A DNA stretch of 64,000 nucleotides. It comes from Bilabrum cf. latius (taxonomy: Eukaryota). The stretch spans positions 434,001-498,000 of the forward strand of contig OZ237745.1 in the NCBI GenBank assembly GCA_965178125.1, given 5' to 3'. Below, in pieces: positions 2 to 63,444 of the stretch (its first letter is position 1; every line of letters begins with the position of its first letter). Position numbers and translations under genes: made by a program. The notes under the pieces are model-generated. The model saw only the letters and a list, made by a program, of their open reading frames with translations. It made no database searches and was not told where the DNA came from.

Positions 2-910
2 CATGAGTTGGATTCGGCGGGCGAGGGAGACTCTGCAGAAGCGCGAGATTTGTTGAAGAAGACCTAGGAGTTGGCAGTGCGCGCGAAAACGGAGGGGAAT
101 CGGGTTGTAAACGCTGCACGCACAGCTATGACGGCCGCTCAGGCTGACGCCGAACGGGTCCAGGGATTGCGGGAGCGACTGGATGCAAAGTCTGGCGGGT
201 CCTCAAGCGGCCCCAGCAAGTCTGGAGGAGACCGACACCCTTCTTCCCTGGTGCGAGCCAGCAAGTCTGGCTACCTCAAGGATCCCGCCCACTCTGCATC
301 TTCCCCTCGGGTCGGCGCCAGTGGTGACAATGGCAGGGCGGAGGGCAGCAACGGTGCGGTGCCAGACAAAGAGCAAGTGGAACATGTCAAAGACGCGGGA
401 GATGATGAAGAAGAGTAGGCCGAGGATGGCGCCGGTACTGGAGCTGCAGAAACAGGCGCATCGGCTGAGGATCTGTTCTTCGCGACTTCTGTGCCGCCCT
501 CCGCGCGCACTGAGGGGGACCGTGCTGCGGCTGACGGCAGCAGCCCTGCAGGGCAAGCGTCTAGCGGTGCAGGGGGCTCGGCCGCACCAGTTCCTGCAAC
601 TTCTTCTTCTTCGTCGTCGTCGTCATCTGGTGCAGATGCCGCATCTGCGGAGGCTTAGCCCAGTGCATCGGGACGCACTTTGTCAATCGAGGCATCCAGC
701 ATACCAGGCTATGATCCATCCGCGCCTGCCTCCTCCCTTGATGCCCTGAAGGTGCACATGGGCGCATTTGGCGCCGTGGAGGGTGTCACTGCCGACGGGG
801 ATAATGGTGCGGCTGTCCTTGTCCGCTTCGGAGACGCCAAGGCGGCGGAGATGGCGTCACAGATGGGTAGAGCCATGGGAGGAAAGTTGCTCGATGTGAA
901 GGTGGTGTGA
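2..910 (+). CDS. 3' part of an RNA-binding protein with a C-terminal RRM-like domain (RBM26/27-like); 5' end lies outside the window
   Basis: One frame from 2 to TGA 908-910, interrupted only by TAG at 65, 416 and 656. The C-terminus LKVHMGAFGAVEGV...AVLVRFGDAKAAEMASQMGRAMGGKLLDVKVV has an RRM pattern like the last RRM of RBM26/27, after a coiled-coil/low-complexity stretch. Confidence 0.5.
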
Positions 911-1089
911 CTCTTCTGGGTGAAATGGGTGAGTTAATAAGGCTGGAATTCCTGATATTAAATTGTTTTGCGTAGAAATCCGGATTCCGGATACAGCCAA
1001 TCCAGGTCCTGGTAGAACGCCGCAGTGCCCAATAATCGATGCTTCGAAACAAATGGGGCCGTCCACCGGATCAACTAAAGAGAACCACA

Positions 1090-4000
1090 TCATGCAGGGG
1101 GGCCAGGGGGTGGCCGGGGCGCCTGTTTCTTGCCGGTTGGTGCCGGCGCTTTCGGGCTTTTTCTGCCATGGGGCGGTCTGCGCGCACTGGCTGGCCTGCC
1201 TGCTGCCGGCGGCGACGACACTAAACTGGAAGGATCTTTCGCAGTACTCGGCGGTGCTGGGGGCGGCCTGGCCCCTTTCGGGGGTGCAGGCCTGGAGCTC
1301 TTGCTTGGGGGTGATGGTCTGCCTCCCTTGGGTGCCTTGGGTGCGCCGCGGCTTGGGGGCGCTCTCGGCCCGTTGCCTGGTGGGTCTCTTGGTGGGGCTC
1401 GGGGCGATGCGGGGGCGCGGGAGGGCCGCGGGGGAGCCTTCGGCGGTGACTTGGGAGCTGTCGAGTCCCCGGTGCTCTTGTTCCCCGCGTCCTTTTGCTC
1501 CGGTTTTCCCGGGATGAGTGGCATGGCCCTCTGGCGGATCCTTTCGGGCGGCTCACTCGAGCTCCTCCTCGTCCGCTGCATTGCCTCGATGCTGAACCTG
1601 TCTTCATCGCCATCTCCGCCATCCTCATCATCTCTACCAGCTCGATTCCTCGCGTCCCAAGCCCCAGCACCATCTGCAGCGCTGCCAGCTCCGGCGCTAT
1701 CACCGGGAATCTCGCTGTCTAGAGGCGATGAGCCTGTCCCTGCCCTGCTCCGTCCAGTGGGGGCTATCGATGGCTTGCCACCTCTGCTTGAACCATTCTT
1801 GCCAGTGCTTGCGCTCGTTTCATCACTCCTGTCCGTGCCCTTCCCGTCCTCGCCACTGCCAGCCGCAACGTCCAATCCGCGGCTAGACCGAATCCTGCCG
1901 ATCGCACCGAGCATCTGCTGCGAATCAGTGCCGCTGCCTCGGCGCCGGATATCGCCCTCGATCATGTCGCGCAGAGCGGCCGCGTCGTGCTCTTCATCGC
2001 CATCTCCAGCCATCGCTTCCGCCACCTCGGACACGCTCAGCAGAGAGCCGGGCAACGAGGCACGCGACGCTCCAGCGGCGTGTGCATCGGGCGCACTCCC
2101 CAGTAGAGAGCTACCGCCCTCCAAGCTCTTGTGGAAGGACCTGTGCAGCAGTGATTGCCTCCTGCCGCGCCTGCGGTTGGGTCCCAGCGGCGGCAAACCA
2201 TCAGTGCCTGCCCCTGACAGGCTGCCTCGCTGTCCCGACCTCATGTTGTGGGGCAGCGGGGGGTTGCTCTCGCTTCGTGCGCGCTGCATGATCGGTACAG
2301 GGCCCAAGATGTCGCTTTTGGCAGGGTTTGGGCCGATGGGTGGCGGCGTTGGCGGCTTCCTGCCGGGCGGTGCGCCCGCGCTTGCAGCTGCAGCCGCGTT
2401 CTTGCTATCATTGTCCGAGTCATCGCTTCCGATCATGACGATTGCATCAGGATCGCTCTCGTCGCCCGTGTCGTTGGAGCCCTCATTCTCCTCCTCGTCA
2501 TCCTCCTCTTCATCATCTTCTTCTTCTTCATCCTCCTCCAGGATCGCATCTGCGTCTGCCTTGACTGCAGTGGGCCGGCGCTGCTGCGCAGCGGGAGCCT
2601 TCTTCTTCGCTCCAGGAGAGGATGTTTTCTCGGCTGGCGTGCCATTGGCAGCAGCTTCTGCCATCCTCTTTTTCATCGCCAGCTTGGCTGCCTTCTTGAG
2701 CTTCTTGGCGGCCTTCTTTGCCGCCATCTCTGCCTTGGCGGCTTTCTTGGCCTCCTCTCTGTGTCTCCTCTCCTCTGCTCTTGCCACCTTGTTGATCTGC
2801 TTGGCAAACAGCTGCAAGAACTCCTTTAGGTGGTCAAAGAGAACCTGCGGGGGTACTTCTTTGGGATTGTCGCCCAAGAAGGTGCACAGCCTCGAGTAGG
2901 TGTCGGTGGCCTTCTTGACCTGCTCCTGCACCCTGGAGGCAGTGGCAGTGGCTCGGGCCAGGATTGGCTCCACCGCCGACTTGAGCTGCTCATCGTTCGT
3001 AGTATCCGCCCGCTTTGCCAGGTTCTTCACCTGCTAGAGACCTGCTTGAAGCTTGGCGCTGTCTCCAGTGATTGGTTCGAGCCGAAGGAAGGCCAGCTGC
3101 GCCTGCATGAGGGACGGGAAATCGTCCACCACCGCAAGCAGGCGCCTCGAGTGCTTCCAAAGCGTCTCCACGATGAACTCGAGGAAGGAGGCTCCGCTCC
3201 TGGACCGAAGCATCACGGTCTGGTTCAGGCTGCTCATTTTGATACCAGCTGCACCGGCTGCCTTGTGCCCTGCCGTCTCGTTTAGGTGGTTCCCGAGAGG
3301 AAGGATCACGTCCCGCAGGAGCAGCTTGAACTGCCTGCTCGCCTTGACCTCGTCACAGACAGCGAGCAGCAAGCCAGTTCTATCCAGCACGTCGTCCTCC
3401 AGCTCGGCCATGCTTCCCATGAAGGCCATGCATCTGAGGCGGAGGATGCAGGCCGGCACGCCAACCACGATCTTGGCGATGAACCGGTCTGCCAGAGAGA
3501 AGTTCTCATCGATGGGTTCTTTCTTGTCCTCAATGTGCCGCTTGACGGGGTTGACGGCCATAGGATCGAATGCTTGCTTGGCGTTCAGCAACGTCTCGGC
3601 GACGGAGCTGGACATGGACTCGAAGTCCAGGCGGCGGATCGCCTCCGCGGCGTCGTTGAGGTCCATGCGGCCCAGTGTGCCAGCGATGGCGATCTCAATG
3701 TTCTTGGCCGCACCTTGGTCCTATTGAAGCGACTTCTTCGCCTTGTCTTTCTTCTTGGCCCCCACACCTGCAGCACCCGACCCCTTACCTTTGCCCTTGC
3801 CCTTCTTGCCCGACTCCTTCTTTTCGTTGGAAAAGACGTCAAGCATGGAGCTGTACACGCTGTGCATGTTCTGCAGCGTGTGAGGGGGAGACCCTGGGCT
3901 GGTGGGACCAGAGCTGGGGCCGGCACCACCTGCCGCTGGCGGAGATCCAAACATGCCAGCCATTCCACCGCTCTGCCCAAACAGGCCAGGCATGATTGAA

Positions 4001-7000
4001 CCTCTCCTCCTGTCAAAAATGGTGCCTTTCACGTCACCCTTGTCCATCGTCTCCCAGCGGAGGGAACGCACCTTCGGCAGATTCTTCTCGCCGCTCTTGG
4101 TCCCCTTGCCCTTCCCTTTACCCTTGCCCTTGCCCTTGCCCTTGCCGTTCCAGCCCGCCTTGGCTCGATTAGCCTTAATCCTCGCTGCCCTTTCCTGGCG
4201 CTCCTTGGCCTCCTCTTCCTCCTGCAGCCAGCGCACCGACATAGCACAAAATCCAGGAAAGAAGACCCGAGTAGCCACATTCATGCTGCGGCGCTGCCGC
4301 ACAGTACCAACGAATGAACCGAACGCAGCCATCTTTATGCTTCGAATAAGCCTCTTCCTCAGCTTCAACATGAGGCCAGGAAGACCAATGCTGAACGCAA
4401 TCGCTCTAACGGTGTCCTTGCGCCGGTTGTGCGCAGACCGCATCAGCACGCCCACTCCAGCCATTTTGCCCCTGAACATGTCCCACAGCTCGGCCCCGCT
4501 GAGCTTCACCACCTTCATTCGCCTGCCTTTGGGATTGTCCACTACCGCTACAAGGCCCTTCTAAGCCAGCCCACCAGCTCTCCCGATGTCTTGCGACTTC
4601 TCCTCTGCCTCCTCCTACTTGGGATCGATCGGTACACCTGCAACTTCATCAGGCTCGTAGGCATCTGCACTGGTGGAGTCGTTGTGCTGGTCCGGCTTGC
4701 TGCCGTGGTAGTCAGCTTCATCGTAGGCAATCATGCTGCTGTTGCTAGTTCCATTGCCATCTGCGTGCCCACTGCTATATTCTCCGCCAAAATCGCCGGA
4801 GTCAGCGGCCGGACCTTCCGAAGGTAGGTTAGCTGCCGTGGAACCGGAAGCTGCTCCAGCACGAAACAATTCGCCCGGCTCACTAGAATCCTCTAAGCTC
4901 TTCCCGCTTGCCTCGGCAGCTGCTTGCATCTGTGCCCGTTCCCTTTCTGCTGCGTTGCGCAAGCGCTCCGCGATAGGGTCAAACGCAGCCGACGGCTTGG
5001 CATCCCTCTGGTCACTGCCTCCTCGAGACGCCCCACCGACGCCACCGAACAGTGCTTGCAGGGCAGCAGCATCTCCCTCGGCTATGCCTCCTTGTCCAAT
5101 GGCGGCACCCGTACCTTTGATCTCTGCATTTGCCTGCCTCTGCTTTTCAATCCTCTCGCGCTCTGCTGCAGTAGCTGCATCTGCCTGCTTGACTCCTTCC
5201 GTTGCGGCCAACACCCCTGCCAGAGCACTACCGGATAGTCCAGCCTGCAACAAGCCAGCAGCAGCATCAGGATCGGTACTAGCACCAGCACCAGCACCAG
5301 CACCAGCACCAGCACCAGTACCAGCACCAGCACCAGCGCCAGCACCAGCACCAGCACCAGCACCAGCACCGCTTTCGCCGCTGATACCGAGAGCCTATTC
5401 GAAACTGCTCAAGTGCCCGACAGAATCACCTTGGACTGCATCTGCACCGAATGCATGTGACCCGGCTACACCATGAGATGCAGCATCTGCACTATGAGTG
5501 ACTTGACCATCAGCAGTCTGGTCGCCATCGGTGTGCCCTGCACGGGGACTCCCGTGGTCCACAGTGCCGGTTGGATCTGCAATGCCTCGCCGTCTCTGCA
5601 AGCCCACCCGTGCCACCTCCCTCGTCGGTCTGCGAATCACACTGATCGGATTGATGGGCGCGTCAGCTCCTGCCTGCTCCCCGGCCACCACAAGCCCGCC
5701 TGCAGCAATACCAGCAACTAGTCGCTGCCCGGGTCCCAGCCGGAAGCTGCCGCCTGACAGAGCGTGCCCGACGTACAGCCCCATACCGGGCTTCTCAGCA
5801 CCACCAGGGACCTCATCTGGCATCATTACGCCACTCTGTGCCACCGATCCATGGGCCCCGTCGATGTCTTGGTCTGATGGTTCGGCCAAGCTTGCCTCCA
5901 GCACGCCTCCACTCGCCACGACATTTGCGGCCTCCTGCACCCTTGCAGTGCCTCCGAAGATTGCCGCATCAGCATCAGCCTCTTGGCCCGTCCGAGTGCG
6001 CCCTGATGGCCCGTGAAGCTGCACCGACTGGGACCCGAAGTCGATTCCAAGCTCGTTTTGAAACTGCGAAGATGCTCCAAGCTGGGAGCCGCCATTACCA
6101 GCATCAGGCAGGTACAGGCTGCGTCGAGGCGGCCCCATCCCGTGGTTCGTAACTTCAGCTCCCGCACCATCGCTACTAGGACCAGCGGAGTCATAGGATG
6201 AAAACATGTTGGTTCGCTTTGGAGGAGTTGCTGGCGGCGTGCGAATCTTTCCAGGTCTGCCCTGTGATTCCACACCGCTGGCAGTGACCCCAGGGCTGCC
6301 CCCGCCGAAGCGCCGCCCGGGTGACTCGCCCACATGCTACCTCGGTGTGGCCGCCTCAAAATCGTCGTCCACATCGACTGGGGTTACCCCATCCAAGATG
6401 TCATCACCCAGGCGGAGCGACTCCGGCGCCACGTTTCTGCCGTATCTAGTGCCCGGAGCGGCCAATGGGGGTGAGCGGGGCGGGGCGGCGTACACCCCAG
6501 GATGGGCCAGCTCATGCCTGCCGGACGGATTTTGCCGACTATCCGCGGACTCGCCAGAACCGCTGCTACTGGTGCGAACCACTCTCGCAAGCGGCGAGCC
6601 TGGCCGCCCTGGCGCCCCTGGAGGCGCACCTGAAGGCGATGAACCGACACCTCTACTGGCCATGGGGATAGGCATCGCTGGCCTGCTTCCGCTAGGTGAA
6701 TCTATCGGGAACCCGCCCGCAGACTCTTGGCTTGAAGTCGGCGATATCACACCATCGGCTGCGAAGGCATCGAAATCTGCTACCACCGCACTGACTAGGT
6801 CCTTGCCGTGCAGGCTGTGTTGCCTGTGCAGCGCACCCGGCACATCATCGCCGCTCGTGCCTGCCCCATCGCCATCCCCGGTCCGGCGCACGCCCTTCGA
6901 TCCACCTTTGCCCATCCCCTAGATCGAGCTGACACGCACCATCTGAGGCTGGCCCAGATCCCCGTTAGCATCAACGACCATTTCTGCTGCTGCACTCGAT

Positions 7001-10000
7001 CCCGTGCCCGCCTCCAACTCTGCTCGCCTGCCCCTGACCTTAGACCTAGCGAGACTGCTGCCACCCGCAGACTTCTGCTTCACTCTGTTGTCCACAACAA
7101 TAGAGTGCATGCGCCCGCGAGCGTGATGCCCCGTCTCGTCCTCCTCGTCCTCCTCGTCCGATGCCTCTGGCACCTGGATGATCGAATACCTGGGCTTCGC
7201 TCCCGGGCCGAGCGCAGGAGAACTGAACGAGTTGACTGAAACCATGCTGTAGGTCGACCCAGAGGACTCAAGCCTGGCCGGGGCGGCCGAAGAAGACTGC
7301 TACTCTTCCAAGAATGAGTCAAGGCCATCAGAAGGCGAGCGGGATGGGTGCATGGAAGGCGATTCGCCCCACTCCGCGCTTGCCGCGGTCCAGCTGCTTG
7401 ATGTGCGGCGCCTCCCGATGGGCTCGAACGCCAGCCTGCCACTCCCGCTCCGCTCTCTCCCGCGGATGCCCCCGGGCCCAGCACCGTTGAGATCGGTACC
7501 ATCACCGGCATCCATAGAATCGTATCGCTGGAAACGACCAGACGGCGGTAGCTGCAGCGAACCCTGGCTGGAATCGCTGCCAGTCTTGCTGCCCCTCCTC
7601 GCGAAATAGCCGCGTGCCACAGATGACGACTTGGATTCGCGCCTCTCTACCTTTGCTCCTGTTGACGAGGCACCTTGGGGCTGGCCAGCGTCATCGGTGG
7701 CACCTGCCCTTAGAGAGAACATCGCACCGGCGTCCTGATCGTGGCTCGGCATGGCCGGAGCAGGCATGTCCATGGAGGGCTCCGGGAATCCCAAACTGCC
7801 ATTTCCCCCGCCAGTTTGGTTCTCCTCCTCTGCAACGGAGGCTTGAATGCCGCCCGCACTCAGACCCAGACCCGCTCCACCCGCCCCCGCTATGCCGAGC
7901 CCTACAGCAGTCCCCTTCCGCTTCAAGGAGCGGGGGGGCCCCGCAACACCACCACCGCCACCGCCACCATTGCTACCGGCTTCGGTCCCTGGACCAGAAC
8001 CAGTCTATGCTGCGAATGAAACCTTGCGTCCCAGCGGGGACCGAGCTGTCCCGCTGGCAGCAAACCCTAACTCGCTGGACGTCGGCACCTGCCCCGACCC
8101 CGCGCCGCCTCCAAGCTGAAACAAGTCTTCCATGCCGTCACCGAGCATTCTTCCGGCCGAACGGTATGAGCCGCCACCGACTCTGAACGATTTGCCGCGC
8201 TTCGGCAGAGCGTCGCCGAACCGCTTGGTGGACCCGTCATCCACGGCAGGCTGAAGCTCGGCGAGTGCTGCTTCGACTTCCCTATCATCGACATCCTCCT
8301 CCTCCACGATGCTCTCCACGTCATCGTGCATGGAATACGGATTAAAAGGCGTGGGCGGTGCATCAGGAGTGCCTGGCGGCTGCAGCGGTGACTTTGGCCC
8401 AATGGCTTGGCTTCGGTTGGCACCCGGTGACCCATTCTGACCTAGTGCGCCACCCATGCGCCCGCCCTCTACACCCCCATCGCCCCCGTCTACACCAATT
8501 CGCACGGCCGATGCCCTTGCTCGCGCAGCTGCCCTCCTCACAGCACCCCAGTCCCCCTTGCCGTCCTCAGCCTCTCGCACTGCCTTGCCGAACTCCGCAA
8601 GGGCGGCAAAATCCGATTCCAGCTGCGCGTCGCTGCGTTCTTCCGGGGCAGAAGATACCCGAATACCCCCAATACCATCAGCATTACCCTGTCGGAGATT
8701 CTACTGTCCCAGTTCCTGCCTCTGGCGCTGCAGCTCCTTCGCAGTCAGCTGCTTCACTCCTGGCTGCAGCACTCCGAGCTCTTGCTGGCTGTACTCGCTC
8801 ACTGGCTTGTCCCCAATGCTGCTAGCCGACCCCGTTGTGCTGCTGTTCCCTGGGGTCAACCTGGGCCCCCGTGTAAACGCGAGTGCCTCCCTCTCTCGCG
8901 TGCCCCAGTAGTCCCCATCGTCTGCCCCGTCGTCGTCATGCAGTGACTCGTCCCGACTGGTGCCGGTGCCAGTGCCCGTGCCCGCCGACTGAGAATTACT
9001 GTACGGTACGATAGAGCGCTTTATCGACCCTCTTTCCCTCCTGTTCGTGGTTCCAATCGCGAGCACGCTGGGGTCACCGGTGATGGCAGAGAGTGCCTCC
9101 GTCCCATAGACCACGTGTGATCGAGGAAACCAGCCGGAGTGGCCCAACACAGAGCGACTAAAGGCGTCTATTGTTGTTGTTGTTCCCTGGGATGACCTGC
9201 CACTCATCACACCTAATTTCTCGATGGTTCCGAACCACCATTCGCTGCTCCTCCTCCACTCGGATACGCGCACAAGGTCCCCGGGGTTGATGGACAGCTC
9301 GTTGCCGCCGGGAGACGCGTGAAACGCGTGCACGCAGCAGGACCGGAAACTTTTTGGGGCAGTTGTTCGCCCGCTAGAGGGTGTCCCCTTGCTCATTGGA
9401 AGAGACGAAGGAGTGCCAGTGGGCGGAGCGTCTAGGCCCAGATCAGCCAGGTCTGGGGCATGGAGGCTGGCCGACGCATCGGAGCTGTCGCTGCTCACCG
9501 ACTTGCCTTCCTGCTCGAGACTCCCACCGCCGCTGCTGGCGCCGTCCATGCTGTGTGACGAGTGCAAATGCTCGGTGATCTCGACGAGCGACCGGTGAAG
9601 CTCGGGGTCACGGCGCCGCGCCGCAGTGGCAATCTTCGCGAGCGATGCCGTGGTGCGGCGCCGGCTGCGTCGGGCTGCCTCTAATCGTGATCCACGCGTG
9701 ACGAGCGAGCCGCGGCGGCTGCCGGGCCCGTTCAGCAAGCCTGGCTTCAAGTCGGCTGCCGACGAACAAGTGCCAGTGCGGCTGCCGCCTTGGCTTCGTT
9801 GCACTCCAGCGTCGGGCAAGGTCGCGTAGGGAGACGGCACAGGAATTCTACGCCACTAGTCATCCTAATCTTTCAGTTCCTAGCGAAGCACTGCTTCTCG
9901 CAGCATGTCTTGGCGTGCGAGCACTCGAGCGAGCAGGTCTTGCTCCGAGCTTGCCTCCAGCTACAGCCTCCCAGCGGATGCGATTGCCTCTGATAGCTTG

Positions 10001-10548
10001 TCTAGTGCACTAACCATGCTGCTTGAATACTGATCCGGAAGCTTTGGCAACTTGGGAAGTTCTGCGAGTGCGGAGGCCGGCTTGTCCGCATGCCGAACGG
10101 ACTCGGTCCTCTTGGTGCTGTTGCTGCCAGGCAAAGAGCTGCTGCAGGGAAGTAGTCCCTACTTCATGTCAACCAACATTTCAGCTAATCTCTCCTTGTA
10201 TGATCGCCATGCTTCAAGGTTTCCTTCCTTCTGGATTCCCTCCTTGCTTGCTGCTGCAAGCACCGCTCCGTCCGTCTCACACACCTGCGCAACCTATCGC
10301 AAGAGCTTGGCTTCAGCGGCAGTTGCGCGGGTCGATCCCAGCGCATACCTTGCCCGAATGGTTGCGGCTCTTCTTGTTCGGACAACTTGATTTTGTGTCA
10401 TACTTGCAGATGCTGAATCTAACAGACTGCCGATCAGCTGCAATTCTGCGCCACGAGCTTCTTCGATTTCTTGTTGAAAATCGGATGATTTCGTTGCATA
10501 GGAGTGTTCATCGCTCGTGTGGCCTGCGCCGGGCATACCCGTAGCCAT
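1090..10548 (-). CDS. giant formin-like protein (SH3 + FH2, Pro-rich C-terminal tail), ~3152 aa with TAG=Gln
   Basis: The listed minus ORFs 1090, 3034, 3721, 4615, 5395, 6337, 6919, 7300, 8005, 8701 and 10294 share one frame. I read the gaps: only TAG (16x), no TAA/TGA, from ATG 10548 to TGA 1090. FH2 motifs KVRSLRWETM...KGTIF, AKNIEIAI and VILPLGNHLN...GAAGIKMSSL...SFLEFIV at ~2780-4085. SH3 HAFHAS..NELSINPGDLVRV..EWWFG..GWFPRSHV at ~9110-9345. Confidence 0.85.
5281..5370 (-). repeat. coding hexamer microsatellite (GGTGCT)n encoding (Gly-Ala)n inside the formin
   Basis: agcacc repeated ~15 times, in frame with the formin ORF. Confidence 0.85.
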
Positions 10549-10764
10549 CGCTATCGCGGTATTTTAGCACTTGCAGATGCGCTGGTGCAGTTTTGGTCGC
10601 AATAAATTTGTAACGAATGGTTAGAATTAATCGGAAATTCGATGCGACGCGCAACAGGGAACCAGCCCTTGGCGGAGATCCTTTGGCGCACACTCTACCG
10701 ACCCAAGCGTTCCACATCGACGCTTGTGACCGCTTTGTTTTAACTGGCATACAAAGTTTTCAAC

Positions 10765-53305: not shown

Positions 53306-53618
53306 TCCATCTGGAGGTGCTTGACCTCCTCCGCCGGATCTGGTCCTGGCCGTCTTCCTTTTCAGCCAAACCACTGCGGTGAACAAAAATAGGCATTTCG
53401 AAATCTGCGCGGCGGTCACAGGCGTTTATATAGTCAAAAGCGCGACACTGCGATGCGAATCAGAAGCTGTCCATCTTTTTGCTGCACCTGCCGAACATGG
53501 CTGGCTGCATGCATCTCGAATTAATACACCCTGGAAGCAGTCACCATTTGGAAAAGCTAGACATGGCCAACCTTTGATCGATGACTATAACAGGACAAAA
53601 TTCGTTTGTGCAAACAAT

Positions 53619-54608: not shown

Positions 54609-55481
54609 TGGGGCGCGAGTAACATCTGCGAGATTTCACAAGGTGCATGGAAGGCGATAGGGGACGGCATGGGGTTCACACAGTGTTCGACTCTTTTCGT
54701 GAAGAGTCGAAAGCAGCGGCAGCATCTCTTGAGGCGATCAGCACAGAGAATCATGCAAGCAGAGATCAAATCTGGCAAGGTTACACGGTCATAGCCGGGA
54801 TACGCCTGCCTGTAGTCGTAGCGTGATGGTAGCAACGCGAATCAAGCCAGCCACGTTCCAGAGAACTCCCGACGCCCTCATTAGCCACATCCACAACATA
54901 GGCATTATGGTGCACCGTTGTACACTTCCAATATCATGCTTCAAGCGTGTAGCGTAACACAAAGCTGGGGAGAACCCCCGGTTGGCCTTGGCAAGGCATC
55001 CGTGAGGACCAGCAAGGTTGCAACACCAGTCGCACACACGAGACCAGCCCGGCGAAATAGCAGCAAACGTACGCAAATAAGGTGCATAATATACCGAGCT
55101 AGGCAAGCAGGCAGTCCAGTCGGCGAAATCACTCGTACAAAAGAAGCCTCTCACCCTTACCCTCATCCCCATCATCTCTCTGCCTAGCAGCCGCCAATAC
55201 TGCCAAAGAGGCGAGAGCAAACAAAACAAGCTTCATTGTATTTATACTACTGGCCTACTGCGGTCCTTAGCAAGGTGTTGGCTTGGCCTTCAAGTCCTGT
55301 AAGTTGCGCCCAGTAAGGCGCTGGCTTTTCAATCCTGTTTTTCTGGTTGTAAGGTTGATTTTTGTCCGTATGGTGCGGTTGCAACTGCTAGGTGGAGGCA
55401 AGTTGGGATTATTGAATGGTATTCGTTCGGTCCTGCGCAATGCTAGTCAGATAAAACTGCGGTTTTGTTCTGGATGCACGA

Positions 55482-57424
55482 ATGATGCTGAGAATGAGGA
55501 GACTAGTGCGAGAAGGCATGCGTTTGGGAGCTTGTCGAGCAATTGCTCCATCACTGGTGTATCAGCTCGTCACCCCACGGCACTTCCACGCATGCAGCCG
55601 TGGTATGGCATCGCATACTCCAAAAGAGGCGTAGGGATCCCAAAGTGAGGGTCTTCCGCCGGCTCGACTTGATTTTCGGTCCATTCGAGACGACATCGAG
55701 TATCACGCGTGGAACAGCAGTGCAAGAAACGCGGTTGCGGAACCGCATAAGGCGGCAACTCTGTACAGCGATCGAATCAAAGCCGATTTGGAGCTCAATA
55801 CTGTCCGAAAAGGTGAGAAACTTGGAATGGCATCTGCTGGTGTGCCCGTCTAAACTCCTCACACATCGTCTGCAGCAACTGTTCCGCCCATACCTTGATA
55901 TACGCAGAAAGGAATATGCTATCCAAGAGCAAAAACGCCAGCCGCGAAGAGAAGCGGGAGCGTGGCAAGGCTCTGAAGCAAAAGCTAGCCGAATTGGAAC
56001 GGGCCAGAGATGCGCTCGCGGAGCAGCTGCAGGCAGAGGCCCTCCGAGTCCCCAATGCGACGCACCCAGCGGCCCCATCCGGTGACGAAGACCAGGCGAT
56101 AGAAGTCCTGCGAGCCGGTCCGCTCGCAGATCCCGCGGCGCCCGGCACGAAGAGCTGGCTAGGTGCAGAGATGGCCAGCGTTGCCTCGGGTGAGACGGGC
56201 GGTGAGGGCGGGGCGGCAGGGTCCTCGCTGCCCCAGCCCAGGGACCACTACGAGCTCTGCGAGCTGCTGGACATCGCGGATTTCGGCTCCGGATCCCGTG
56301 TCTCCGGCCCCAAGTTCGCCGTGTTCAAGAACGCGGGCGCCATGCTGGAGATGGGCATCGCCCTGTGGGCCGCGGGAGAGCTGAGGAGCAAACTGGGCAT
56401 GGAGGTGCTTGTTCCCCCGGACGTGGCACGGGCAGACATCGCGGCCGGCTGCGGGTTTCAGCCTCGCGGGGTTGAATCCCAGACCTACCAGCTGGACGGG
56501 ACGGACCAGGTGCTGGTCGCAACCTCGGAGGTGACGCTCACCGGGATGCACGCCAGTGCAGTGCACCCTACAAAGTCCCTGCCCATGGTGCACGCGGGCG
56601 TGAGCCACTGCTTCCGCAGGGAGGCCGGTTCCAGCGGGGTGGCTCAGCGGGGGCTGTACCGCCTGCACCAGTTCACCAAGGCCGAGATGGTGGTCGTGTG
56701 TCACGCCACTCCAGAGGACGGCAAGGGCGCTGGCAGCAGGCCCACCATCTTGAGGCCGGCGGGGGAACACGGTCTCGGGGATAGGGGTGACGGCAGCGGC
56801 GGCGCGTCAGCTGACGTGGTGGTTCCGCTCCACGAGCGCGCCCACTCCGAGATTGCGCGGCGCCAGCTCGCGGGTGTTCCGCAGCCGGACGGCCGGCCCG
56901 TGCTGGGCGGCGCGGCGGCCGAGTGCCCCACCGCAACCGCTGCTTCTGTTCCCCAGGGAACAACAGCGGATCCCCCGCCGCAGGACCGCTACCTCCAGGA
57001 CCTGGTGGCCATCCAGTGCTGGCTGCTGGACCAGCTGGGGCTGTCATACCGCGTGCTTGACATGCCCACCGCGGAGCTGGGTGCGTCTGCCAGCAGGAAG
57101 TTTGACGTGGAGGCGTGGATGCCGGGGCGCCGCGCATTCGGGGAGGTGTGTTCCGCAAGCGACTGCGGTGACTACCAGGCGCGCCGGCTGGGCATCCAGT
57201 ACGAGGCCGGGGGCAGCAGGGGCAGGGTGTTCGCCCACACCCTGAACGCCACAGCGGTGGCCGTCCCACGGGTGCTTCTCGCCATCCTCGAGACGCATCA
57301 GAGGGAGGACGGGTCAGTGGTTATCCCCGAGTGCCTGCGCCCCTTCCTCGGGGGACAGGAGGTGCTCGAGCCGGTCCCCGCCGAGAAGAGGACCGGGATG
57401 CGACACGTAGGGTTCGCAAGCTGA
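55482..57424 (+). CDS. SARS2: seryl-tRNA synthetase, mitochondrial type
   Basis: Exons 55482-55812 and 55908-57424. Arg-rich presequence, TAG 55632, VPNATHP, LVATSE, CFRREAG, GLYRLHQFTKAEM, GEVCSASDCGDYQARRL, HTLNATAVAVPR. Ends TGA. Confidence 0.93.
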
Positions 57425-57794
57425 CGATGACCGCATGGTGATGCTTCAAGTGTGCCGTGGCACTCCTTGTTAGGGCGATGAATTAGACCTGATTGGGCGG
57501 TGGAATTGACCTTACTGGGCTCGCATGCGAGACTGGAATCGGAGCAAAGCAGCCAGACTTAGGCGGCAGTTGGCAGCCGCGGAGCCGTCGCTCTGGTCTT
57601 GTTTGGCGTGTGCGCGCTGGAAAACGGAAGCAATGAATAGATTGTACAAGTAGCAGCGCGCAACACACGTGCAGACTGACATGCAAGCAACCAGGCGGGC
57701 ACTGGGCAGTCGGCAACGCAAGCCGATCCCCTGCCGCCTCCAGACGTCTGCACCCGATCCTGAAACCATGCCTCGAAACGTCGTATTGCCCAGC

Positions 57795-59375
57795 TCAGAA
57801 GAAGCCCAGCTTGTTCTTGTCGTGCGAGATGAGCATGTTCTTGGTCTGCCTGTAGTGGTTCAGCATCATCTTGTGCGTCTCGCGGCCGAAGCCGGACTGC
57901 TTGTATCCGCCAAAGGGTGCGTGCGCGGGGTACGCGTGGTAGCAGTTCACCCACACGCGACCCGCCTTGATCGCACGGGGCACCTGGTACGCCTGGTGCG
58001 TGTCGCGGGTCCACACGCCAGCGCCCAGCCCGTAGATGGTGTCGTTGGCGATCTCGATGGCCTCCTCCTCAGTCTTGAAGGTGGTGACCCCCGCCACGGG
58101 GCCGAAGATCTCCTCCTGGAAGACCTTCATGTCGTTGGTGCCCGCCAGGATCGTGGGCTTGATGTAGTACCCGCCGTCCACGGGATCGTGCGATGCACCC
58201 CCGGTGAGGACCTTGGCGCCCTCGGTCTGCCCCAGGTTGATGTAGTTCATGATCTTCTCGTGCTGCGCGGCGGACACCTGCGCCCCCATCATCGTGTCGG
58301 CGTCCAGGGGGTTTCCGGTCTTGACCGCCTCGGCGCGCTTGACCACCCTCTCCATGAAATCGTCGTAAATGTCCTCCTGCACGAGCCAGCGGGAGTTGCA
58401 GGTGCACACCTCGCCCTGGTTGAGCGCGAAGAGCACGGCGCCCTCCACGGCCTTGTCGAGGAACTCGTCGTCCTTGTCGCACACGGAGGAGAAGAACACG
58501 GAGGGGCTCTTCCCGCCGAGCTCCAGGGTCGTGGGGATGAGCGAGTCGGCGGCGGCGTGCAGCACGTGAGTGCCCGTGGCGGTGGAACCGGTGAAGGCGA
58601 CCTTGTCGATTCCCTTGCTCGTCGCCAGCGCCTCGCCCGCCTCGGCACCGAATCCGGTGACTACGTTGAGAACGCCAGGAGGGAGGATGTTTGCTTCCTT
58701 GATAAGCTCCATGAGCGCCATAATGGACGTGGGCGTCTGCTCGGCGGGCTTGAGAACGACGCAGTTGCCTGCGGCGATGGCCGGCGCGACCTTCCACGCG
58801 GCCATGAGCAGCGGGAAGTTCCACGGAATGATCTGTCCCACAACACCAAGAGGCTCCTGGATGCAGAGCGAGACGGTGTTTGCGTCCAGCTCAGACGCGG
58901 TCCCTTCCTCTCCGCGAATCACACCCGCGAAGTACCTGAAGTGGTCGATAACCAGCGGAATGTCGGCTGCCATGCACTCGCGGATGGCCTTACCGTTATC
59001 CACGCACTCGATTTTGGCCAAACGCTCGGCGTTGGCCTCCACGAGGTCGGCAATCTTGAGCAACATGTTTGATCGCTCCGTGACCGAGGCCTTCGAGAAG
59101 GTCGACTCAAACGCAGTCCTTGCCGTCTGCACAGCGTTGTCCACGTCCTCCTTCGTCCCTCTGGCAGTTTTGATGAATGGCTTTCCATCGATGGGCGAAA
59201 TGTTGTCGAAGTACTGCCCCTGGGCCGGCTTCACCCACTCACCACCGATGAAGTTGTCGTACTTGTCTGGCAGGCCAAGATCCAGGCCTGCAACGATCGA
59301 CATTGCGCGCCTCGCGCCAGAAAAAGACGCCATAGGCAGTGACCTACGCATCGAACGGAAACTTCGGGCCAGCAT
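57795..59375 (-). CDS. NAD-dependent aldehyde dehydrogenase, bacterial AldB/AcoD/ExaC type, with a mitochondrial presequence
   Basis: Intronless. GQIIPWNFP, KPAEQTP, FTGST, LELGGKSP, NQGEVCTC, EEIFGPV, C-terminus HYRQTKNMLISHDKNKLGFF; N-terminus MLARSFRSMRRSLPMASFSGARRAMS. Ends TGA. Confidence 0.93.
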   Translation of the reverse strand: MLARSFRSMRRSLPMASFSGARRAMSIVAGLDLGLPDKYDNFIGGEWVKPAQGQYFDNISPIDGKPFIKTARGTKEDVDNAVQTARTAFESTFSKASVTERSNMLLKIADLVEANAERLAKIECVDNGKAIRECMAADIPLVIDHFRYFAGVIRGEEGTASELDANTVSLCIQEPLGVVGQIIPWNFPLLMAAWKVAPAIAAGNCVVLKPAEQTPTSIMALMELIKEANILPPGVLNVVTGFGAEAGEALATSKGIDKVAFTGSTATGTHVLHAAADSLIPTTLELGGKSPSVFFSSVCDKDDEFLDKAVEGAVLFALNQGEVCTCNSRWLVQEDIYDDFMERVVKRAEAVKTGNPLDADTMMGAQVSAAQHEKIMNYINLGQTEGAKVLTGGASHDPVDGGYYIKPTILAGTNDMKVFQEEIFGPVAGVTTFKTEEEAIEIANDTIYGLGAGVWTRDTHQAYQVPRAIKAGRVWVNCYHAYPAHAPFGGYKQSGFGRETHKMMLNHYRQTKNMLISHDKNKLGFF

Positions 59376-59603
59376 GCTGTTCAAGGAAGGAGAAGTTGCA
59401 GACTGATGATGTAGCGTTCGATGGATTCTGCCGCGTGACCCCAATGCGATCGTGTTGGGGGGTGAATGTCACAGGGGACCACCACTTGGATTTATCGTAT
59501 TTTTACCCTATTGAATGTAACGTTCAGATTGGTATTCAATTTTCAGGAACGGGGGCGTCCATCACTCCAAAGCAACCCAAAGTAACCTACAAGCGTTTAC
59601 AAC

Positions 59604-62069
59604 ATGGCAGCATCAGCAGATTCCGGAAGCAAGATTGACGGCCACTCAGTTGGCATCGACCTGGGTGAGTTTGGAAGCGATATGCAACGATGAGGCTTCG
59701 AAATGCGCTGCCACGCGTCGGTGCGGCCGCAGTCTCGTTTGGACAGAGCGCGCTACATGCCTTCTGATCGCATCCATGCAAGGTCGCATATATTAAACAC
59801 ATCTCATTCTATCGCAGGCACCACCTATTCATGCGTCGGTGTGTGGCAGAACGACCGCGTCGAGATCATCGGTGAGAGTGGCGCGTAGTTGGCTGTGTTC
59901 CCGACATTTCGAGCGATATCCCGGCTGATGCACGTTCACTGCGCAATTCACGATGGCCTGTATTGATAATCACCATCAATAAGTGTTTATTAATGCGGTG
60001 ACTGTGTCGATTGTGCGACTGATGCCTTGGTTCACCAGGTTTCGACAGATTTCCAGGGTTTTCCAAGGTGCTCGGTCGGCGATTTCATTCACCATTGCGG
60101 CCGTGTACGGCTTCAATAGGCACCATGCGACTGTTTCCATGTATCCTTTTTCTGTCCTTGCTTTCTGCAATCTCTCGCAGCCAACGACATGGGCAACCGC
60201 ACGACCCCGTCGTACATCGCGTTCACCGATGCCGAGCGCCTCATCGGCGACGCCGCCAAGAACCAGGTGGCCATGAACCCTAAGAACACCGTGTTCGACG
60301 CCAAGCGTCTCATCGGCCGCAAGTTCGCGGACCCCAAGATCCAGGAGGACATGAAGCACTGGCCCTTCAGGGTGGTGGCCTCTCCCGACGGCAACCCCGT
60401 CATCCAGGTCGACTACAAGGGCGAGACCAAGACCTTCCGCCCCGAGGAGATGTCCGCCATGGTCCTTCAGAAGATGAAGGCCATCGCCGAGTCTTACCTC
60501 ACCGGTGACGTGAAGAACGCCGTGGTGACCGTGCCCGCGTACTTCAACGACTCCCAGCGCCAGGCCACCAAGGACGCCGGCACCATCGCCGGCCTCAACG
60601 TGCTGCGCATCATCAACGAGCCCACGGCCGCCGCCATCGCGTACGGCCTCGACAAGAAGGGCGGCGAGAAGAACGTGCTCATCTTCGACCTCGGCGGCGG
60701 CACCTTCGATGTGTCCCTCCTGACCATGGAGGACGGCATCTTCGAGGTCAAGGCCACGGCCGGCGACACCCATCTCGGTGGCGAGGACTTCGACAACCTG
60801 ATGGTGGACCACATGGTCAAGGTGTTCGAGCGCAAGAACAAGGGCGTGGGCAACATCCGCAAGAACGACCGCGCCATGCGCCGCCTGCGCACCGCCTGCG
60901 AGCGCGCCAAGCGCAGCCTGTCCACCCAGCTGCGCGCCCACATCGAGATCGACTCCCTGTTCGAGGGCGTGGACTTCTCCGCGGACGTGACCCAGTCCAA
61001 GTTCGAGGACCTGTGCGACACCCTGTTCAACAAGTGCATGTCCCCCGTGGCCCAGGTGCTCAAGGACTCCAAGATCCCCAAGGACAAGGTCGACGAGATC
61101 GTGCTGGTGGGCGGGTCCACCCGCATCCCCAAGATCCAGAACCTCCTCAAGAGCTTCTTCAACGGCAAGGAGGTGTGCAAGAGCATCAACCCCGATGAGG
61201 CCGTGGCCTATGGCGCCACCGTGCAGGCGGCCATCCTGAGCGGCAGCGGTGCCGGCACCAAGCTGGACGAGCTCCTGCTGCTGGACGTGACCCCCCTGTC
61301 CCTGGGCCTCGAGACGGCCGGCGGCGTGATGACCACGCTGATCAAGCGCAACACCACCATCCCCACCAACCAGAGCCAGACCTTCTCCACCTACCAGGAC
61401 AACCAGCCCGGCGTGCTGATCCAGGTGTACGAGGGAGAGCGCAAGATGACCAAGTTCAACAACCTGCTCGGCAAGTTCCAGCTGTCCGGCATCCCCCCCA
61501 TGCCCCGCGGCGTGCCCCAGGTGGAGGTCACCTACGACCTGGACGCGAATGGGATCCTCAACGTGAGCGCCGTGGAGAAGTCCACTGGCAAGGCCGAGAA
61601 GATCACCATCACCAACGACAAGGGGCGCCTGTCCAAGGACGACATCGAGCGGATGGTGTCCGAGGCCGAGAGCTTCTCCGCCGACGACGAGCGCATGGCC
61701 GAGCGCATCGAGGCCAAGAACGCCGTGGAGAACTACGCCTACAACGTGCGCAACAGCGTGCGCGACGACAAGGTCAAGGACAAGCTCTCGGACGAGGACC
61801 GCGAGACTGTCGAGAGCGCCGCCAAGGAGGTGATCGAGTGGATCGAGGAGCACGAGGAGTCCGAGAAGGAGGAGTTCGAGGCCAAGCAGAAGGAGCTCGA
61901 GCAGAAGGTCATGCCCATCATGACCAAGCTGTACGCCGGCATGGGCGGCGCACCCGGCGGGATGCCTGGCGGCATGCCCGGTGGTATGCCCGGCGGCATG
62001 GGCGGAGGCCCCGAGTCGGCCACTGCCATGGACGAGGACGACGGGCCCCAGATCGACGAGGTCGACTAA
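59604..62069 (+). CDS. HSP70: cytosolic Hsp70
   Basis: Exons 59604-59664, 59818-59871 and 60181-62069 rebuild [49 protein letters not shown] repeats, ends IDEVD followed directly by TAA. Confidence 0.97.
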
Positions 62070-62919
62070 GCGGCAGGCACCCCGGTGCTGGCAGCCCTTG
62101 CCTCGGATGCGCACGCGACAGTGTGAGCAGCAACGCTTTTGTTTCAGCTGAATGATTTTCAGAAAGCTCTTGATATATTGCAACTATCTCAAAATGTCGT
62201 TTCATCTCTCAACTCTTCACAAGCTCGGGTTGAAATCGCATACACGAAAGCATGGCCGCACAGAGGCTAGCTCTCGCAGATCTGCCCGATCCGCACTGTA
62301 CGTGCGAGAGACTAGAGTCAGGGAGAGAAATGAGAAACTTGTTTCGCTTCCAGCTGCCCTAAGTCCAATGTGCCCTCGATCTAGTGCGACCTCACAGGCA
62401 CCCGCAGCCACGCGACGGTCGCACCACAGCCCTCCCGAGCCATTCATTGATTCTAGCTGTCCCCGGCCTGGCAATACCCCTTCCTCCTCCCTGTGCCTGG
62501 CCGCCGCTCAGAGGCCATCCATGTTTATCCCACCCCCCTGTCATGCCCTCCTGTCAACCTACCTGGCATTCAGATGCAGCCACGGACAGGTCCAAACCCA
62601 TGGCCGCCTGCAGCCCAGGAGCTCCTCTCCATTCGAAAAAAGGCTCCGATCAGTGACACGATTCAACTAAGGAAGCCGCCAAATGCGGTAGTGCTCTTTG
62701 AACTTCGCCGTGCTATCCTGCGCAAGAACACTCGTTCACCCGGACAACTGTCGCCGTTGGCTGTCGCTCCCCACCCCTGGCCTAGTGATCGGTGCACCAA
62801 GGGATTCGATACAAATCGTGCTGATTGTGCTCATCGTCTTGGCTAGAACATTGCACATTGCCAACGGCGTGGGCGCACGGGCGCACCTGGACAGCTCGAT
62901 CAAATGGCAGCGCTAACGG

Positions 62920-63444
62920 TCAGTACTTGTGCGAAGTACTGTAGTCTTTGGGGCTGATTGCGAGGCCCCTCCCTTTCCTAGCCTGCTTGTAAACAGCTTC
63001 AATGATTGCGATCATCTCGTCCTCGTCGTCAAAAGCCCAGTCTATCTTGTTGTTGTTGCCAGTCCCAAGGTCCACCATGATGTGCTTGTTTCGATAGAAA
63101 AACATCACCGCACAGTCATCATCCCAGAGCTCGTACATCGAATTAAATTCTGGAACTTCCGTGGTATCTACCAGGTACACAACAGCAAACTTCTTGATCT
63201 TTTCGGCTATGCCAGCCAAGACCTCGTCAACAACCAGGCACGTGTCGTCCCAGTCATGGCCAAATCGAATGACAATAACCCGCTCTTCCTCATTCTGCAA
63301 AATTCAGTAACTAGCAAGGCGTAAAAGAGATGGTGGTGCTCGCTTTCGACCGATATTTCGCGCACCTCTCAATCATGTGTCTCTTACCAAGATAGCCTGG
63401 TCAACCGAATAACCGGTTCGTAAATGTGGAAGCAGATACGACAT
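62920..63444 (-). CDS. DIM1: U5 snRNP protein Dim1/TXNL4A
   Basis: Exons 63444-63388 and 63294-62920: MSYLLPHLRTGYSVDQAIL|NEEERVIVIRFGHDWD...MFFYRNKHIMVDLGTGNNNKI...GRGLAISPKDYS. Ends TGA. Confidence 0.96.

What the first reader, a model, noticed from the sequence alone, without database searches (positions are those of the whole stretch)
2..63444. Nuclear genetic code with TAG=Gln while TAA and TGA remain stops
Seen: ~70 in-frame TAGs in about 15 ORFs, with no in-frame TAA/TGA inside the intact genes. TAG sits at conserved Gln sites: prenyltransferase AF*IMDD (13807) and DDF*D (13399); PPi-PFK SGG*APGG (44429) and YSPV*IAR (45346); Rpn12 YA*LQPYY (15427); and the Q slot of a QPQP*HQHQHQ repeat (18442). 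All fixable gene ends are TGA, or TAA for Hsp70 directly after DEVD; none is TAG. Known: UAA and UAG are usually reassigned together in nuclear codes. UAG=Gln alone (the pattern of NCBI table 15) is known to me only from the fornicate Iotanema spirale and a few phyllopharyngean ciliates. Inference: this GC-rich, intron-bearing organism may be an independent, possibly undescribed origin. Standard-code annotation would fragment or pseudogenise its genes.
Basis: partly seen in the sequence, partly recalled or inferred. Interest (0 to 1): 0.97.

Follow-up and report, generated by a model that had tools for sequence, protein, structure and literature searches.

The report
Stramenopile nucleus reads TAG as glutamine
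This stretch of nuclear DNA comes from a GC-rich protist, probably a heterotrophic stramenopile, that uses the stop codon TAG to encode glutamine while still stopping at TGA and TAA, a rare change of the genetic code that I could not find reported for this group.

Summary
In 15 gene frames (11,787 codons) there are 53 in-frame TAG, 0 TAA and 0 TGA. Spliced RNA contigs from two studies keep TAG at 9 sites in 6 genes, with no editing.

TAG means glutamine:
- Homologue columns under TAG are Q in 120 of 120 and 87 of 120 (polyprenyl synthase), 99 of 179 (PFK1) and 28 of 48 (PFK2).
- Summed log-likelihood over five columns is Q -4.8 and E -15.8.
- Against a related metagenome contig, 5 of 6 TAG-bearing codon pairs are TAG versus CAG/CAA, in both directions.

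Twelve gene ends are 11 TGA and 1 TAA, none TAG. If TAA were also glutamine, about 13.6 in-frame TAA would be expected; none is seen.

Best protein matches are stramenopiles: Cafeteria, placidids and oomycetes. This is therefore an origin separate from Iotanema and the ciliates. Six full-text searches found no nuclear code change reported in stramenopiles.

The tRNA-Gln(CUA) and eRF1 could not be examined, because no genome is held. Verdict: a real new member of the known table-15-type code, in a new lineage.

The parts
1090..10563 (-). Formin gene frame (FH2 domain at about aa 2234-2586), 3157 codons, 16 in-frame TAG, ends TGA
   Evidence: Pfam FH2 E 4.6e-36; TAG positions; stop. The two TAGs inside FH2 fall in variable columns.
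10744..14187 (+). CrtC-lipocalin + polyprenyl synthase fusion gene; TAG at 13399, 13654 and 13807; stop TGA
   Evidence: Pfam. Columns in 120 homologues: 13399 Q 87 / E 33; 13654 variable; 13807 Q 120 of 120. The relative L001 has CAG at 13807.
15340..15972 (+). Last exon of proteasome lid subunit Rpn12/PSMD8; TAG at 15427 and 15643; stop TGA
   Evidence: Pfam CSN8_PSD8_EIF3K. In 3 PDB homologues, 15427 aligns with Q in all 3 and 15643 with R/K. P0391 (99% identical) and P0392 (77%) have Q at 15643. L001 has CAG at both sites.
22489..25962 (+). 1157-codon ORF with 11 TAG inside repeat copy 1 (22423-26087); no family found
35918..39487 (+). 1189-codon ORF with 11 TAG inside repeat copy 2 (35852-39612). 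The copies are 98-99% identical and all 11 TAG sites are kept
30282..32741 (-). 819-codon ORF with 8 TAG, including a TAG-TAG pair; no family found
42114..44725 (-). PPi-type phosphofructokinase 1 mRNA (introns 42957-43170 and 43314-43454), 688 aa, TAG at 44429, stop TGA
   Evidence: Spliced RNA contigs in X5 and X7 with 0 differences; model; column Q 99 / P 63 of 179.
45195..47629 (+). Phosphofructokinase 2 mRNA (intron 45509-45770), 634 aa, TAG at 45346, stop TGA
   Evidence: column Q 28 / E 9 of 48.
47629..48727 (+). Expressed ORF of unknown family with a signal-peptide-like start; TAG at 47888, 47906 and 48107
   Evidence: RNA contig in X5; no Pfam match.
49204..51681 (-). DXD glycosyltransferase-like ORF with 5 TAG (51333, 51045, 50658, 50238, 49311), ends TGA
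   Evidence: Pfam Gly_transf_sug. The X5 RNA contig 49872-50969 covers two of the TAGs.
52156..53583 (+). 2OG-oxygenase-like gene (further exons upstream; introns 51791-51920, 51983-52155 and 52420-52562); TAG at 53258; stop TGA
55432..57630 (+). Seryl-tRNA synthetase-like gene (intron 55811-55905); TAG at 55632 in the N-terminal extension; stop TGA
57643..59454 (-). Aldehyde dehydrogenase gene, 0 TAG and 0 CAA, stop TGA
   Evidence: Pfam E 2.6e-163.
60174..62069 (+). Cytosolic Hsp70, second exon to the end; 0 TAG and 0 CAA; stop TAA at 62067-62069 directly after ...IDEVD; next in-frame stop is TGA, 19 codons on
   Evidence: PDB match E 1e-275.

Best explanation
The window is nuclear DNA of a GC-rich (about 60%), intron-bearing protist, most likely a non-ochrophyte, non-oomycete stramenopile. 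Its cytoplasmic translation reads UAG as glutamine, while UGA (the main stop) and UAA still terminate.

Shown:
- UAG sits inside expressed, spliced, conserved genes.
- It stays UAG in the mRNA.
- It stands where relatives have Gln.
- It interchanges with CAG/CAA between close relatives.
- It is not seen at gene ends.
- It behaves like a non-preferred synonymous Gln codon. It makes up 11% of Gln-family codons and, like CAA, is absent from the most GC3-biased genes.

Inferred, not shown:
- Decoding is by a tRNA-Gln with anticodon CUA. This is one base change from tRNA-Gln(CUG), and it pairs with UAG but not UAA, which would explain why UAA stayed a stop.
- An eRF1 N-domain with weakened UAG recognition accompanies it.
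- The strong preference for TGA stops in this GC-rich genome made loss of UAG stops cheap.
For: (1) 53 TAG, 0 TAA and 0 TGA in 11,787 in-frame codons of 15 genes. Off-frames hold 145 TAG, 51 TAA and 447 TGA in 23,544 codons.

(2) Contigs in X5, X6 and X7 carry GT..AG or CT..AC joints and a poly-T loose end, so they are spliced RNA. They match the window with only 2 differences in 19.9 kb, neither at a TAG. The listed pieces cover 9 TAG sites in 6 genes.

(3) Homologue columns are Q in 120/120, 87/120, 99/179 and 28/48. Summed log-likelihood over five columns is Q -4.79, E -15.8 and P -19.1. Q also stands at 15427 in 3 of 3 PDB homologues shown.

(4) Against the relative L001, window TAG pairs with CAG 3 times and window CAA/CAG pairs with L001 TAG 2 times, out of 6 exon pairs that involve TAG. 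A 99%-identical protein and a 77%-identical protein both have Q at the window's TAG 15643.

(5) Stops are 11 TGA and 1 TAA of 12 in the window, and 3 TGA of 3 in L001.

(6) If TAA tracked TAG as CAA tracks CAG (ratio 0.26), 13.6 in-frame TAA would be expected. None is seen, Poisson P about 1e-6. Hsp70 ends at TAA right after its C-terminal EEVD-type motif.

(7) The tRNA(CUA) logic and the eRF1 precedent (T32G in Iotanema) come from passages of PMC5304391.
Against: - No tRNA gene lies in the window and no genome is held. Neither tRNA-Gln(CUA) nor eRF1 was seen, so the mechanism is inference.
- There is no protein-level evidence.
- Only 64 kb plus a 3.7 kb relative were sampled, and only one TAA-terminated gene.
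- At variable columns TAG aligns with other residues: 13654 has A 39, D 19, E 14 and Q 9 of 120; both FH2 sites align with E in the best PDB hit; 15643 aligns with R/K in distant homologues; and one L001 TAG pairs with Lys AAG.
- Zero TAA/TGA is partly circular for ORFs that lack homology or RNA support.
- With 15 gene ends, occasional use of UAG as a terminator cannot be excluded.
Confidence: 0.9

Rival explanations
1. Ambiguous, context-dependent UAG. It is read as Gln inside genes but also ends some genes, as UAA does in Blastocrithidia or all stops do in Condylostoma.
For: Only 12 + 3 gene ends were examined. Such codes exist (abstracts listed).
Against: 0 of 15 gene ends use TAG. One TAG lies only 14 codons before a TGA stop, in the 2OG-like gene at aa 246 of 259, so proximity to the 3' end does not exclude it as a sense codon.
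Confidence: 0.06
2. Both UAA and UAG are glutamine (the common table-6-type code), and TAA is simply too rare to be seen in a GC-rich genome.
For: UAA and UAG are usually reassigned together (PMC5304391 abstract). TAA is the rarest of the three triplets here: 410 against 905 TAG, both strands.
Against: 13.6 in-frame TAA are expected from the CAA/CAG ratio and 0 are seen, while the off-frames of the same genes hold 51 TAA. Hsp70 ends at TAA exactly at its conserved C-terminus. Reading through would add 18 residues after the EEVD-type motif.
Confidence: 0.03
3. UAG encodes another amino acid (Glu, Lys, Leu, Pro) or is read by low-level readthrough.
For: E is second at two columns: 33 of 120 and 9 of 48. 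P is second at PFK1: 63 of 179. One L001 TAG pairs with Lys. The FH2 sites align with E.
Against: The log-likelihood gap between Q and E is 11 nats. The invariant FQxxDD Gln is Q in 120 of 120. 5 of 6 orthologous codon pairs are TAG versus CAG/CAA. TAG lies in a catalytic motif of essential enzymes, which inefficient readthrough would not sustain.
Confidence: 0.02
4. Artefact or decay: assembly errors, RNA editing of UAG to CAG, or pseudogenes.
For: None found.
Against: DNA contigs (X1) and RNA contigs from two other studies (X5/X7 and X6) agree with the window at the TAG sites. Only TAG, never TAA or TGA, interrupts frames. The genes are spliced and polyadenylated. A separate metagenome relative shows the same pattern.
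Confidence: 0.01

Closest known systems
Iotanema spirale (Fornicata, Metamonada): UAG = Gln, UAA and UGA stops (PMC5304391: abstract and passages)
   Same: The same codon table. UAG alone is reassigned to Gln, and the same single-step tRNA-Gln(CUG) to (CUA) route is proposed.
   Different: A different supergroup, since the best matches here are stramenopiles. UAA is the primary stop in Iotanema, whereas TGA is here (11 of 12). The organism here has an aldehyde dehydrogenase and a seryl-tRNA synthetase whose N-terminal extensions look like targeting sequences; Iotanema is an anaerobe. The Iotanema eRF1 T32G change could not be checked here.
Phyllopharyngean ciliates Hartmannula sinica and Trochilia petrani, and Protocruzia tuzeti: UAG = Gln only (PMC11687900 passages)
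   Same: The same table-15-type code, and UAG is not used as a stop.
   Different: These are ciliates, in which 93.5-100% of C-terminal alignments end at UAA. Here the lineage is outside the ciliates, the genome is GC-rich, and the stops are mostly UGA.
UAA+UAG = Gln codes (NCBI table 6 type: many ciliates, hexamitin diplomonads, some ulvophycean green algae; abstracts)
   Same: Stop-to-Gln reassignment of UAG.
   Different: UAA is not a sense codon here: 0 observed against about 13.6 expected, and there is one TAA gene end.
Rhizarian exLh (UAG = Leu) and Scotinosphaera (UAG = Ser) (PMC5304391; PMC11687900 passage)
   Same: UAG is uncoupled from UAA in a nuclear code.
   Different: The amino acid here is Gln.
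Code-15 bacteriophages (TAG = Gln), e.g. crAss-like phages (PMC9523058 abstract)
   Same: The same codon meaning.
   Different: Those are viral and suppressor-tRNA driven in a standard-code host. Here it is a cellular nuclear genome with spliceosomal introns.

Membership tests
Table-15-type nuclear code (UAG = Gln; UAA and UGA stops) | In-frame UAG inside intact, conserved, expressed genes | tested here: met
   53 TAG in 15 gene frames. Nine sites are covered by spliced RNA contigs.
Table-15-type nuclear code (UAG = Gln; UAA and UGA stops) | UAG stands at positions where homologues have Gln | tested here: met
   Q in 120/120, 87/120, 99/179 and 28/48. Log-likelihood Q -4.79 against E -15.8. 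TAG versus CAG/CAA in 5 of 6 orthologous pairs.
Table-15-type nuclear code (UAG = Gln; UAA and UGA stops) | UAA is not a sense codon and is used as a stop | tested here: met
   0 in-frame TAA against 13.6 expected. One gene end (Hsp70) uses TAA. The sample is small.
Table-15-type nuclear code (UAG = Gln; UAA and UGA stops) | UGA is a stop | tested here: met
   11 of 12 gene ends in the window and 3 of 3 in L001 are TGA. There are 0 in-frame TGA against 447 in off-frames.
Table-15-type nuclear code (UAG = Gln; UAA and UGA stops) | UAG is not used as a terminator | tested here: inconclusive
   0 of 15 gene ends use TAG. That is too few to exclude rare or context-dependent termination.
Table-15-type nuclear code (UAG = Gln; UAA and UGA stops) | The mRNA keeps UAG (no editing) | tested here: met
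   RNA contigs of X5, X6 and X7 show 2 differences in 19.9 kb, none at a TAG.
Table-15-type nuclear code (UAG = Gln; UAA and UGA stops) | A tRNA-Gln with anticodon CUA, and none with UUA | not testable with these tools
   No tRNA lies in the window and no genome is held.
Table-15-type nuclear code (UAG = Gln; UAA and UGA stops) | eRF1 N-domain altered at the stop-recognition motifs (GTS, NIKS, YxCxxxF) | not testable with these tools
   The eRF1 gene is not in the window and no genome is held.
Table-15-type nuclear code (UAG = Gln; UAA and UGA stops) | Gln in the protein at UAG sites | not testable with these tools
   This needs proteomics.
Stramenopiles (heterotrophic, Bigyra-like) | Conserved proteins group with stramenopile sequences | tested here: inconclusive
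   The best named prenyl-synthase hits are Cafeteria roenbergensis (61%), then Mucochytrium and Hondaea. The best named normal-length Hsp70 hits are Suigetsumonas and Placidida sp. (73%), then oomycetes and diatoms. In a quick Hsp70 tree of 30 chosen rows, the window sits on a long branch (0.65) in an SH-aLRT 91 group with placidids and unnamed sequences, outside oomycetes and ochrophytes. No rRNA and no multi-gene tree are available.

The most novel reading that the evidence does not exclude
This is the first nuclear genetic-code change in stramenopiles. It would be an independent origin of the rare UAG-only-to-Gln code, shared by at least two related lineages (the window's organism and the metagenome relative L001). 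It arose in a GC-rich, TGA-terminating genome rather than in a ciliate or an anaerobic metamonad, and RNA and DNA runs exist in at least three studies. That would make a new system in which the uncoupling of UAG from UAA (tRNA-Gln CUA, eRF1 specificity) can be studied.
Probability: 0.6. Interest if true: 0.85.

Novelty: new member of a known kind. Interest (0 to 1): 0.8.

Why it matters
Nuclear code changes are few. Changes that separate UAG from UAA are fewer still. The Gln cases named in the passages I read are Iotanema, two phyllopharyngean ciliate lineages and Protocruzia.

A further, phylogenetically distant case in a GC-rich genome with mainly UGA stops tests ideas on how such codes arise. 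These ideas include capture of a rarely used stop, single-step anticodon mutation of tRNA-Gln(CUG), and change of eRF1 specificity.

There is also a practical consequence. Standard-code gene calling breaks or truncates this organism's genes. The only two database matches to its Rpn12 both start at the first Met after an in-frame TAG. Its proteins are therefore under-represented or mis-annotated in public protein sets, and in metagenome and metatranscriptome surveys.

Tried and rejected
- Whole genome: none is held, so no genome-wide codon inference, tRNA scan or eRF1 check was possible.
- tRNA scan of the window: 0 genes.
- Earlier findings of this scan: nothing for this genome, its sequence or a stramenopile case. 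A words search gave only phage and bacterial TAG cases that do not bear on this.
- Hsp70 search: no near-identical protein (best 75%). Only the 8000 candidates sharing most words were scored.
- Cluster look-up of 10 hits gave no organism names.
- Hsp70 tree: the careful search did not finish in 288 s, and only the quick tree was read.
- FH2 columns under TAG are variable and uninformative.
They say nothing on habitat or expression.
- Parts of 40000-59900 without RNA cover in X6 and X7 are not evidence of silence.
- A family scan with a mis-framed reference failed and was not repeated.
- The long stop-free antisense ORF 11521-14229(-), 902 codons, was rejected as a gene. It has no family, lies opposite the polyprenyl synthase, and has GC 0.91 at its first codon position.
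- Supplements of the cited papers were not seen. Their tables of codon usage and eRF1 alignments could refine the comparison.

Full report
WHAT THE WINDOW IS

The 64 kb window has about 60% G+C throughout. It carries eukaryotic nuclear genes:
- a formin (FH2) gene;
- a CrtC-lipocalin/polyprenyl synthase fusion;
- proteasome subunit Rpn12;
- a purple-acid-phosphatase-like exon;
- two PPi-type phosphofructokinases, head to head;
- a DXD glycosyltransferase-like ORF;
- a 2OG-oxygenase-like gene;
- a coiled-coil protein gene;
- a seryl-tRNA synthetase;
- an aldehyde dehydrogenase;
- a cytosolic Hsp70 (Pfam; PDB).

No whole genome is held for it, and the window has no tRNA gene.

THE OBSERVATION

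In 15 gene frames, with one of two repeat copies counted, there are 53 TAG, 0 TAA and 0 TGA in 11,787 codons. The two other frames of the same genes hold 145 TAG, 51 TAA and 447 TGA in 23,544 codons. So TAG occurs in frame at nearly its background rate (0.45% against 0.62%), while TAA and TGA are excluded.

The formin frame alone runs 3157 codons with 16 TAG.

Part of this is circular, because several frames were defined as TAA/TGA-free ORFs. Long stop-free antisense ORFs also occur in this GC-rich DNA; one example is 11521-14229(-), opposite the prenyl synthase. I therefore rely mainly on frames fixed by homology or by RNA.

RNA EVIDENCE

I laid the contigs of four public runs on 40000-59900.
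- X1 behaves as DNA. Its contigs 41735-48727 and 49006-59900 are unspliced.
- X5, X6 and X7 carry joints with GT..AG ends, or CT..AC ends for minus-strand genes. A poly-T loose end sits at 53588. These runs come from two studies that differ from X1's study.
- The X5, X6 and X7 contigs are therefore spliced, polyadenylated RNA.

The joints define eight introns of 95-529 nt: 42957-43170, 43314-43454, 45509-45770, 51791-51920, 51983-52155, 52420-52562, 54626-55154 and 55811-55905.

Across the 19.9 kb only two differences from the window were listed (54851 and 56676). Neither is at a TAG.

The listed RNA pieces cover 9 TAG sites in 6 genes:
- PFK1: 44429;
- PFK2: 45346;
- the unknown ORF: 47888, 47906 and 48107;
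- the glycosyltransferase: 50658 and 50238;
- the 2OG-like gene: 53258;
- SerRS: 55632.

For PFK2 exon 1, the cover is inferred from the contig lengths and from the 255-letter side of the joint.

Assembly error and UAG-to-CAG editing are thus excluded at these sites. The spliced models give complete ORFs: PFK1 688 aa, PFK2 634 aa, SerRS, ALDH, the coiled-coil gene and the 2OG-like gene. All end at TGA.

WHICH AMINO ACID

All translations used for comparison had X at TAG.

Counts of homologue residues in the alignment column under each window TAG:

| Site | Gene | Homologues | Residues |
|---|---|---|---|
| 13807 | prenyl synthase (FQxxDD motif) | 120 | Q 120 |
| 13399 | prenyl synthase | 120 | Q 87, E 33 |
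| 13654 | prenyl synthase | 120 | variable: A 39, D 19, E 14, S 9, Q 9 |
| 44429 | PFK1 | 179 aligned stretches | Q 99, P 63 |
| 45346 | PFK2 | 48 | Q 28, E 9 |

The prenyl synthase columns come from the fused synthase homologues. The PFK columns come from 150 representatives.

Summed over these five columns, the log-likelihood with pseudocounts is Q -4.79, E -15.8 and P -19.1.

Rpn12 15427 aligns with Q in the 3 PDB homologues shown. 15643 aligns with R/K there. The two FH2 sites fall in variable columns, with E in the best hit.

THE STRONGEST EVIDENCE: CLOSE RELATIVES

The Rpn12 search returned only two proteins, 99% and 77% identical. Both are 154 aa and both start at the first Met after the window's TAG 15427. 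Both have Q at the window's TAG 15643.

The contig encoding the 77% relative is L001, 3746 nt with 57% G+C. It carries the end of the prenyl synthase, Rpn12 and the end of a PFK1 orthologue.

Codon by codon:
- Window TAG pairs with L001 CAG at 13807, 15427 and 15643.
- Window CAA or CAG pairs with L001 TAG at two further sites, one in Rpn12 and one in PFK1.
- One L001 TAG pairs with window AAG (Lys).

So 5 of 6 exon pairs that involve TAG are TAG versus CAG/CAA, in both directions. That is the pattern of synonymous change. It also shows that the relative uses the same code. Its three gene ends are TGA.

STOPS

Twelve gene ends in the window are 11 TGA and 1 TAA, with none at TAG.

The TAA follows the Hsp70 C-terminal ...IDEVD. 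Reading through it would add 18 residues before a TGA.

The in-frame CAA/CAG ratio is 0.26. If TAA were a second new Gln codon used in the same proportion, 13.6 would be expected. None is seen, Poisson P about 1e-6.

TAG makes up 11% of Gln-family codons. Like CAA, it is absent from the most GC3-biased genes, Hsp70 and ALDH. That fits a non-preferred synonymous codon.

With 15 gene ends in all, rare or context-dependent termination at UAG cannot be excluded.

WHO IT IS

- For the synthase, the best named hits are Cafeteria roenbergensis (61%), Mucochytrium quahogii and Hondaea fermentalgiana.
- For Hsp70, the best named normal-length hits are the placidids Suigetsumonas and Placidida sp. (73%), then oomycetes and diatoms.
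- I built a quick Hsp70 tree of 30 rows: the window, 17 named hits and 12 unnamed hits, chosen out of 120 listed. It puts the window on a long branch in a weakly supported group (SH-aLRT 91) with placidids and unnamed sequences, outside oomycetes and ochrophytes.

I read this as a stramenopile, probably among the heterotrophic Bigyra-like lineages. Placement below that level is open.

MECHANISM

The mechanism is inferred. A tRNA with anticodon CUA pairs with UAG and not UAA, and it is one change from tRNA-Gln(CUG). eRF1 must lose UAG recognition; in Iotanema a T32G change in the GTS motif was proposed (passages of PMC5304391).

The near-exclusive use of TGA as the stop here suggests that few genes depended on UAG termination when the change happened. 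None of this could be tested without the genome.

WHAT IS KNOWN

UAG-only reassignment to Gln is reported for Iotanema spirale, Hartmannula sinica, Trochilia petrani and Protocruzia tuzeti (passages of PMC11687900; abstract and passages of PMC5304391).

Six full-text searches and two follow-up look-ups found only mitochondrial code changes in stramenopiles (Labyrinthulea), and no nuclear one. The library lacks most subscription journals, and supplements were closed, so 'undescribed' remains probable, not proven.

VERDICT

This is a real table-15-type nuclear code in a lineage where I could find no report of one: a new member of a known kind. The open points are the tRNA, eRF1, protein-level proof, genome-wide stop usage and exact phylogenetic placement.

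Noticed in passing
window 22423-26087 and 35852-39612: Two copies, 98-99% identical, of a 3.7 kb repeat. Each carries an ORF of 1157 or 1189 codons with no Pfam family and 11 TAG at the same sites in both copies. It may be a mobile or recently duplicated element that is fully adapted to the variant code.
   Followed up: partly
window 30282-32741 (-) and 28680-29702 (+): An 819-codon ORF with 8 TAG, including a TAG-TAG pair, and a 340-codon ORF share a similar C-terminal stretch (…RIRR.R.G…SKSVDAQVR.WAR…). This suggests a second repeated gene family of unknown function between the two large repeats.
   Followed up: no
window 42114-47629; proteins P0241-P0262: The two phosphofructokinase genes lie head to head as separate transcripts. 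Most of the best-scoring representatives are proteins of 1000-1370 aa that match the query in two stretches, so relatives seem to have the two halves fused.
   Followed up: no
L001 1-3746 against window 13801-15982 and 42114-43313: In the relative, a PFK1-like gene lies next to Rpn12 on the opposite strand. In the window, PFK1 is 27 kb away from Rpn12. Gene order has therefore changed between the two organisms.
   Followed up: partly
window 53588-55282 (-): A coiled-coil protein gene with a signal-peptide-like start and a 529-nt intron has by far the deepest RNA contigs of the stretch, with word depth up to about 3400 in X5. It has no clear family.
   Followed up: no
window 47629-48727 (+): An expressed ORF of about 360 aa with a hydrophobic N-terminus, Cys-rich, with 3 TAG and no Pfam family.
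   Followed up: no
window 48692-49039: A tandem array of a unit of about 68 bp (about 5 copies, 96-99% identical) lies between the unknown ORF and the glycosyltransferase-like gene.
   Followed up: no
window 11521-14229 (-): A 902-codon frame without any stop codon (TAG included) lies antisense to the polyprenyl synthase gene. It looks like a by-product of the strong GC3 bias, and it warns against calling genes from ORF length alone in this genome.
   Followed up: partly
window 57630-57643: The SerRS and ALDH transcripts converge, and their 3' ends are about 12 nt apart. One X5 RNA contig runs across both genes.
   Followed up: no
window 59994-60174: The Hsp70 homology starts at about residue 28 of the family, so a short first exon must lie upstream of an intron. 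The protein sits on an unusually long branch for a cytosolic Hsp70 (0.65 in the quick tree).
   Followed up: no
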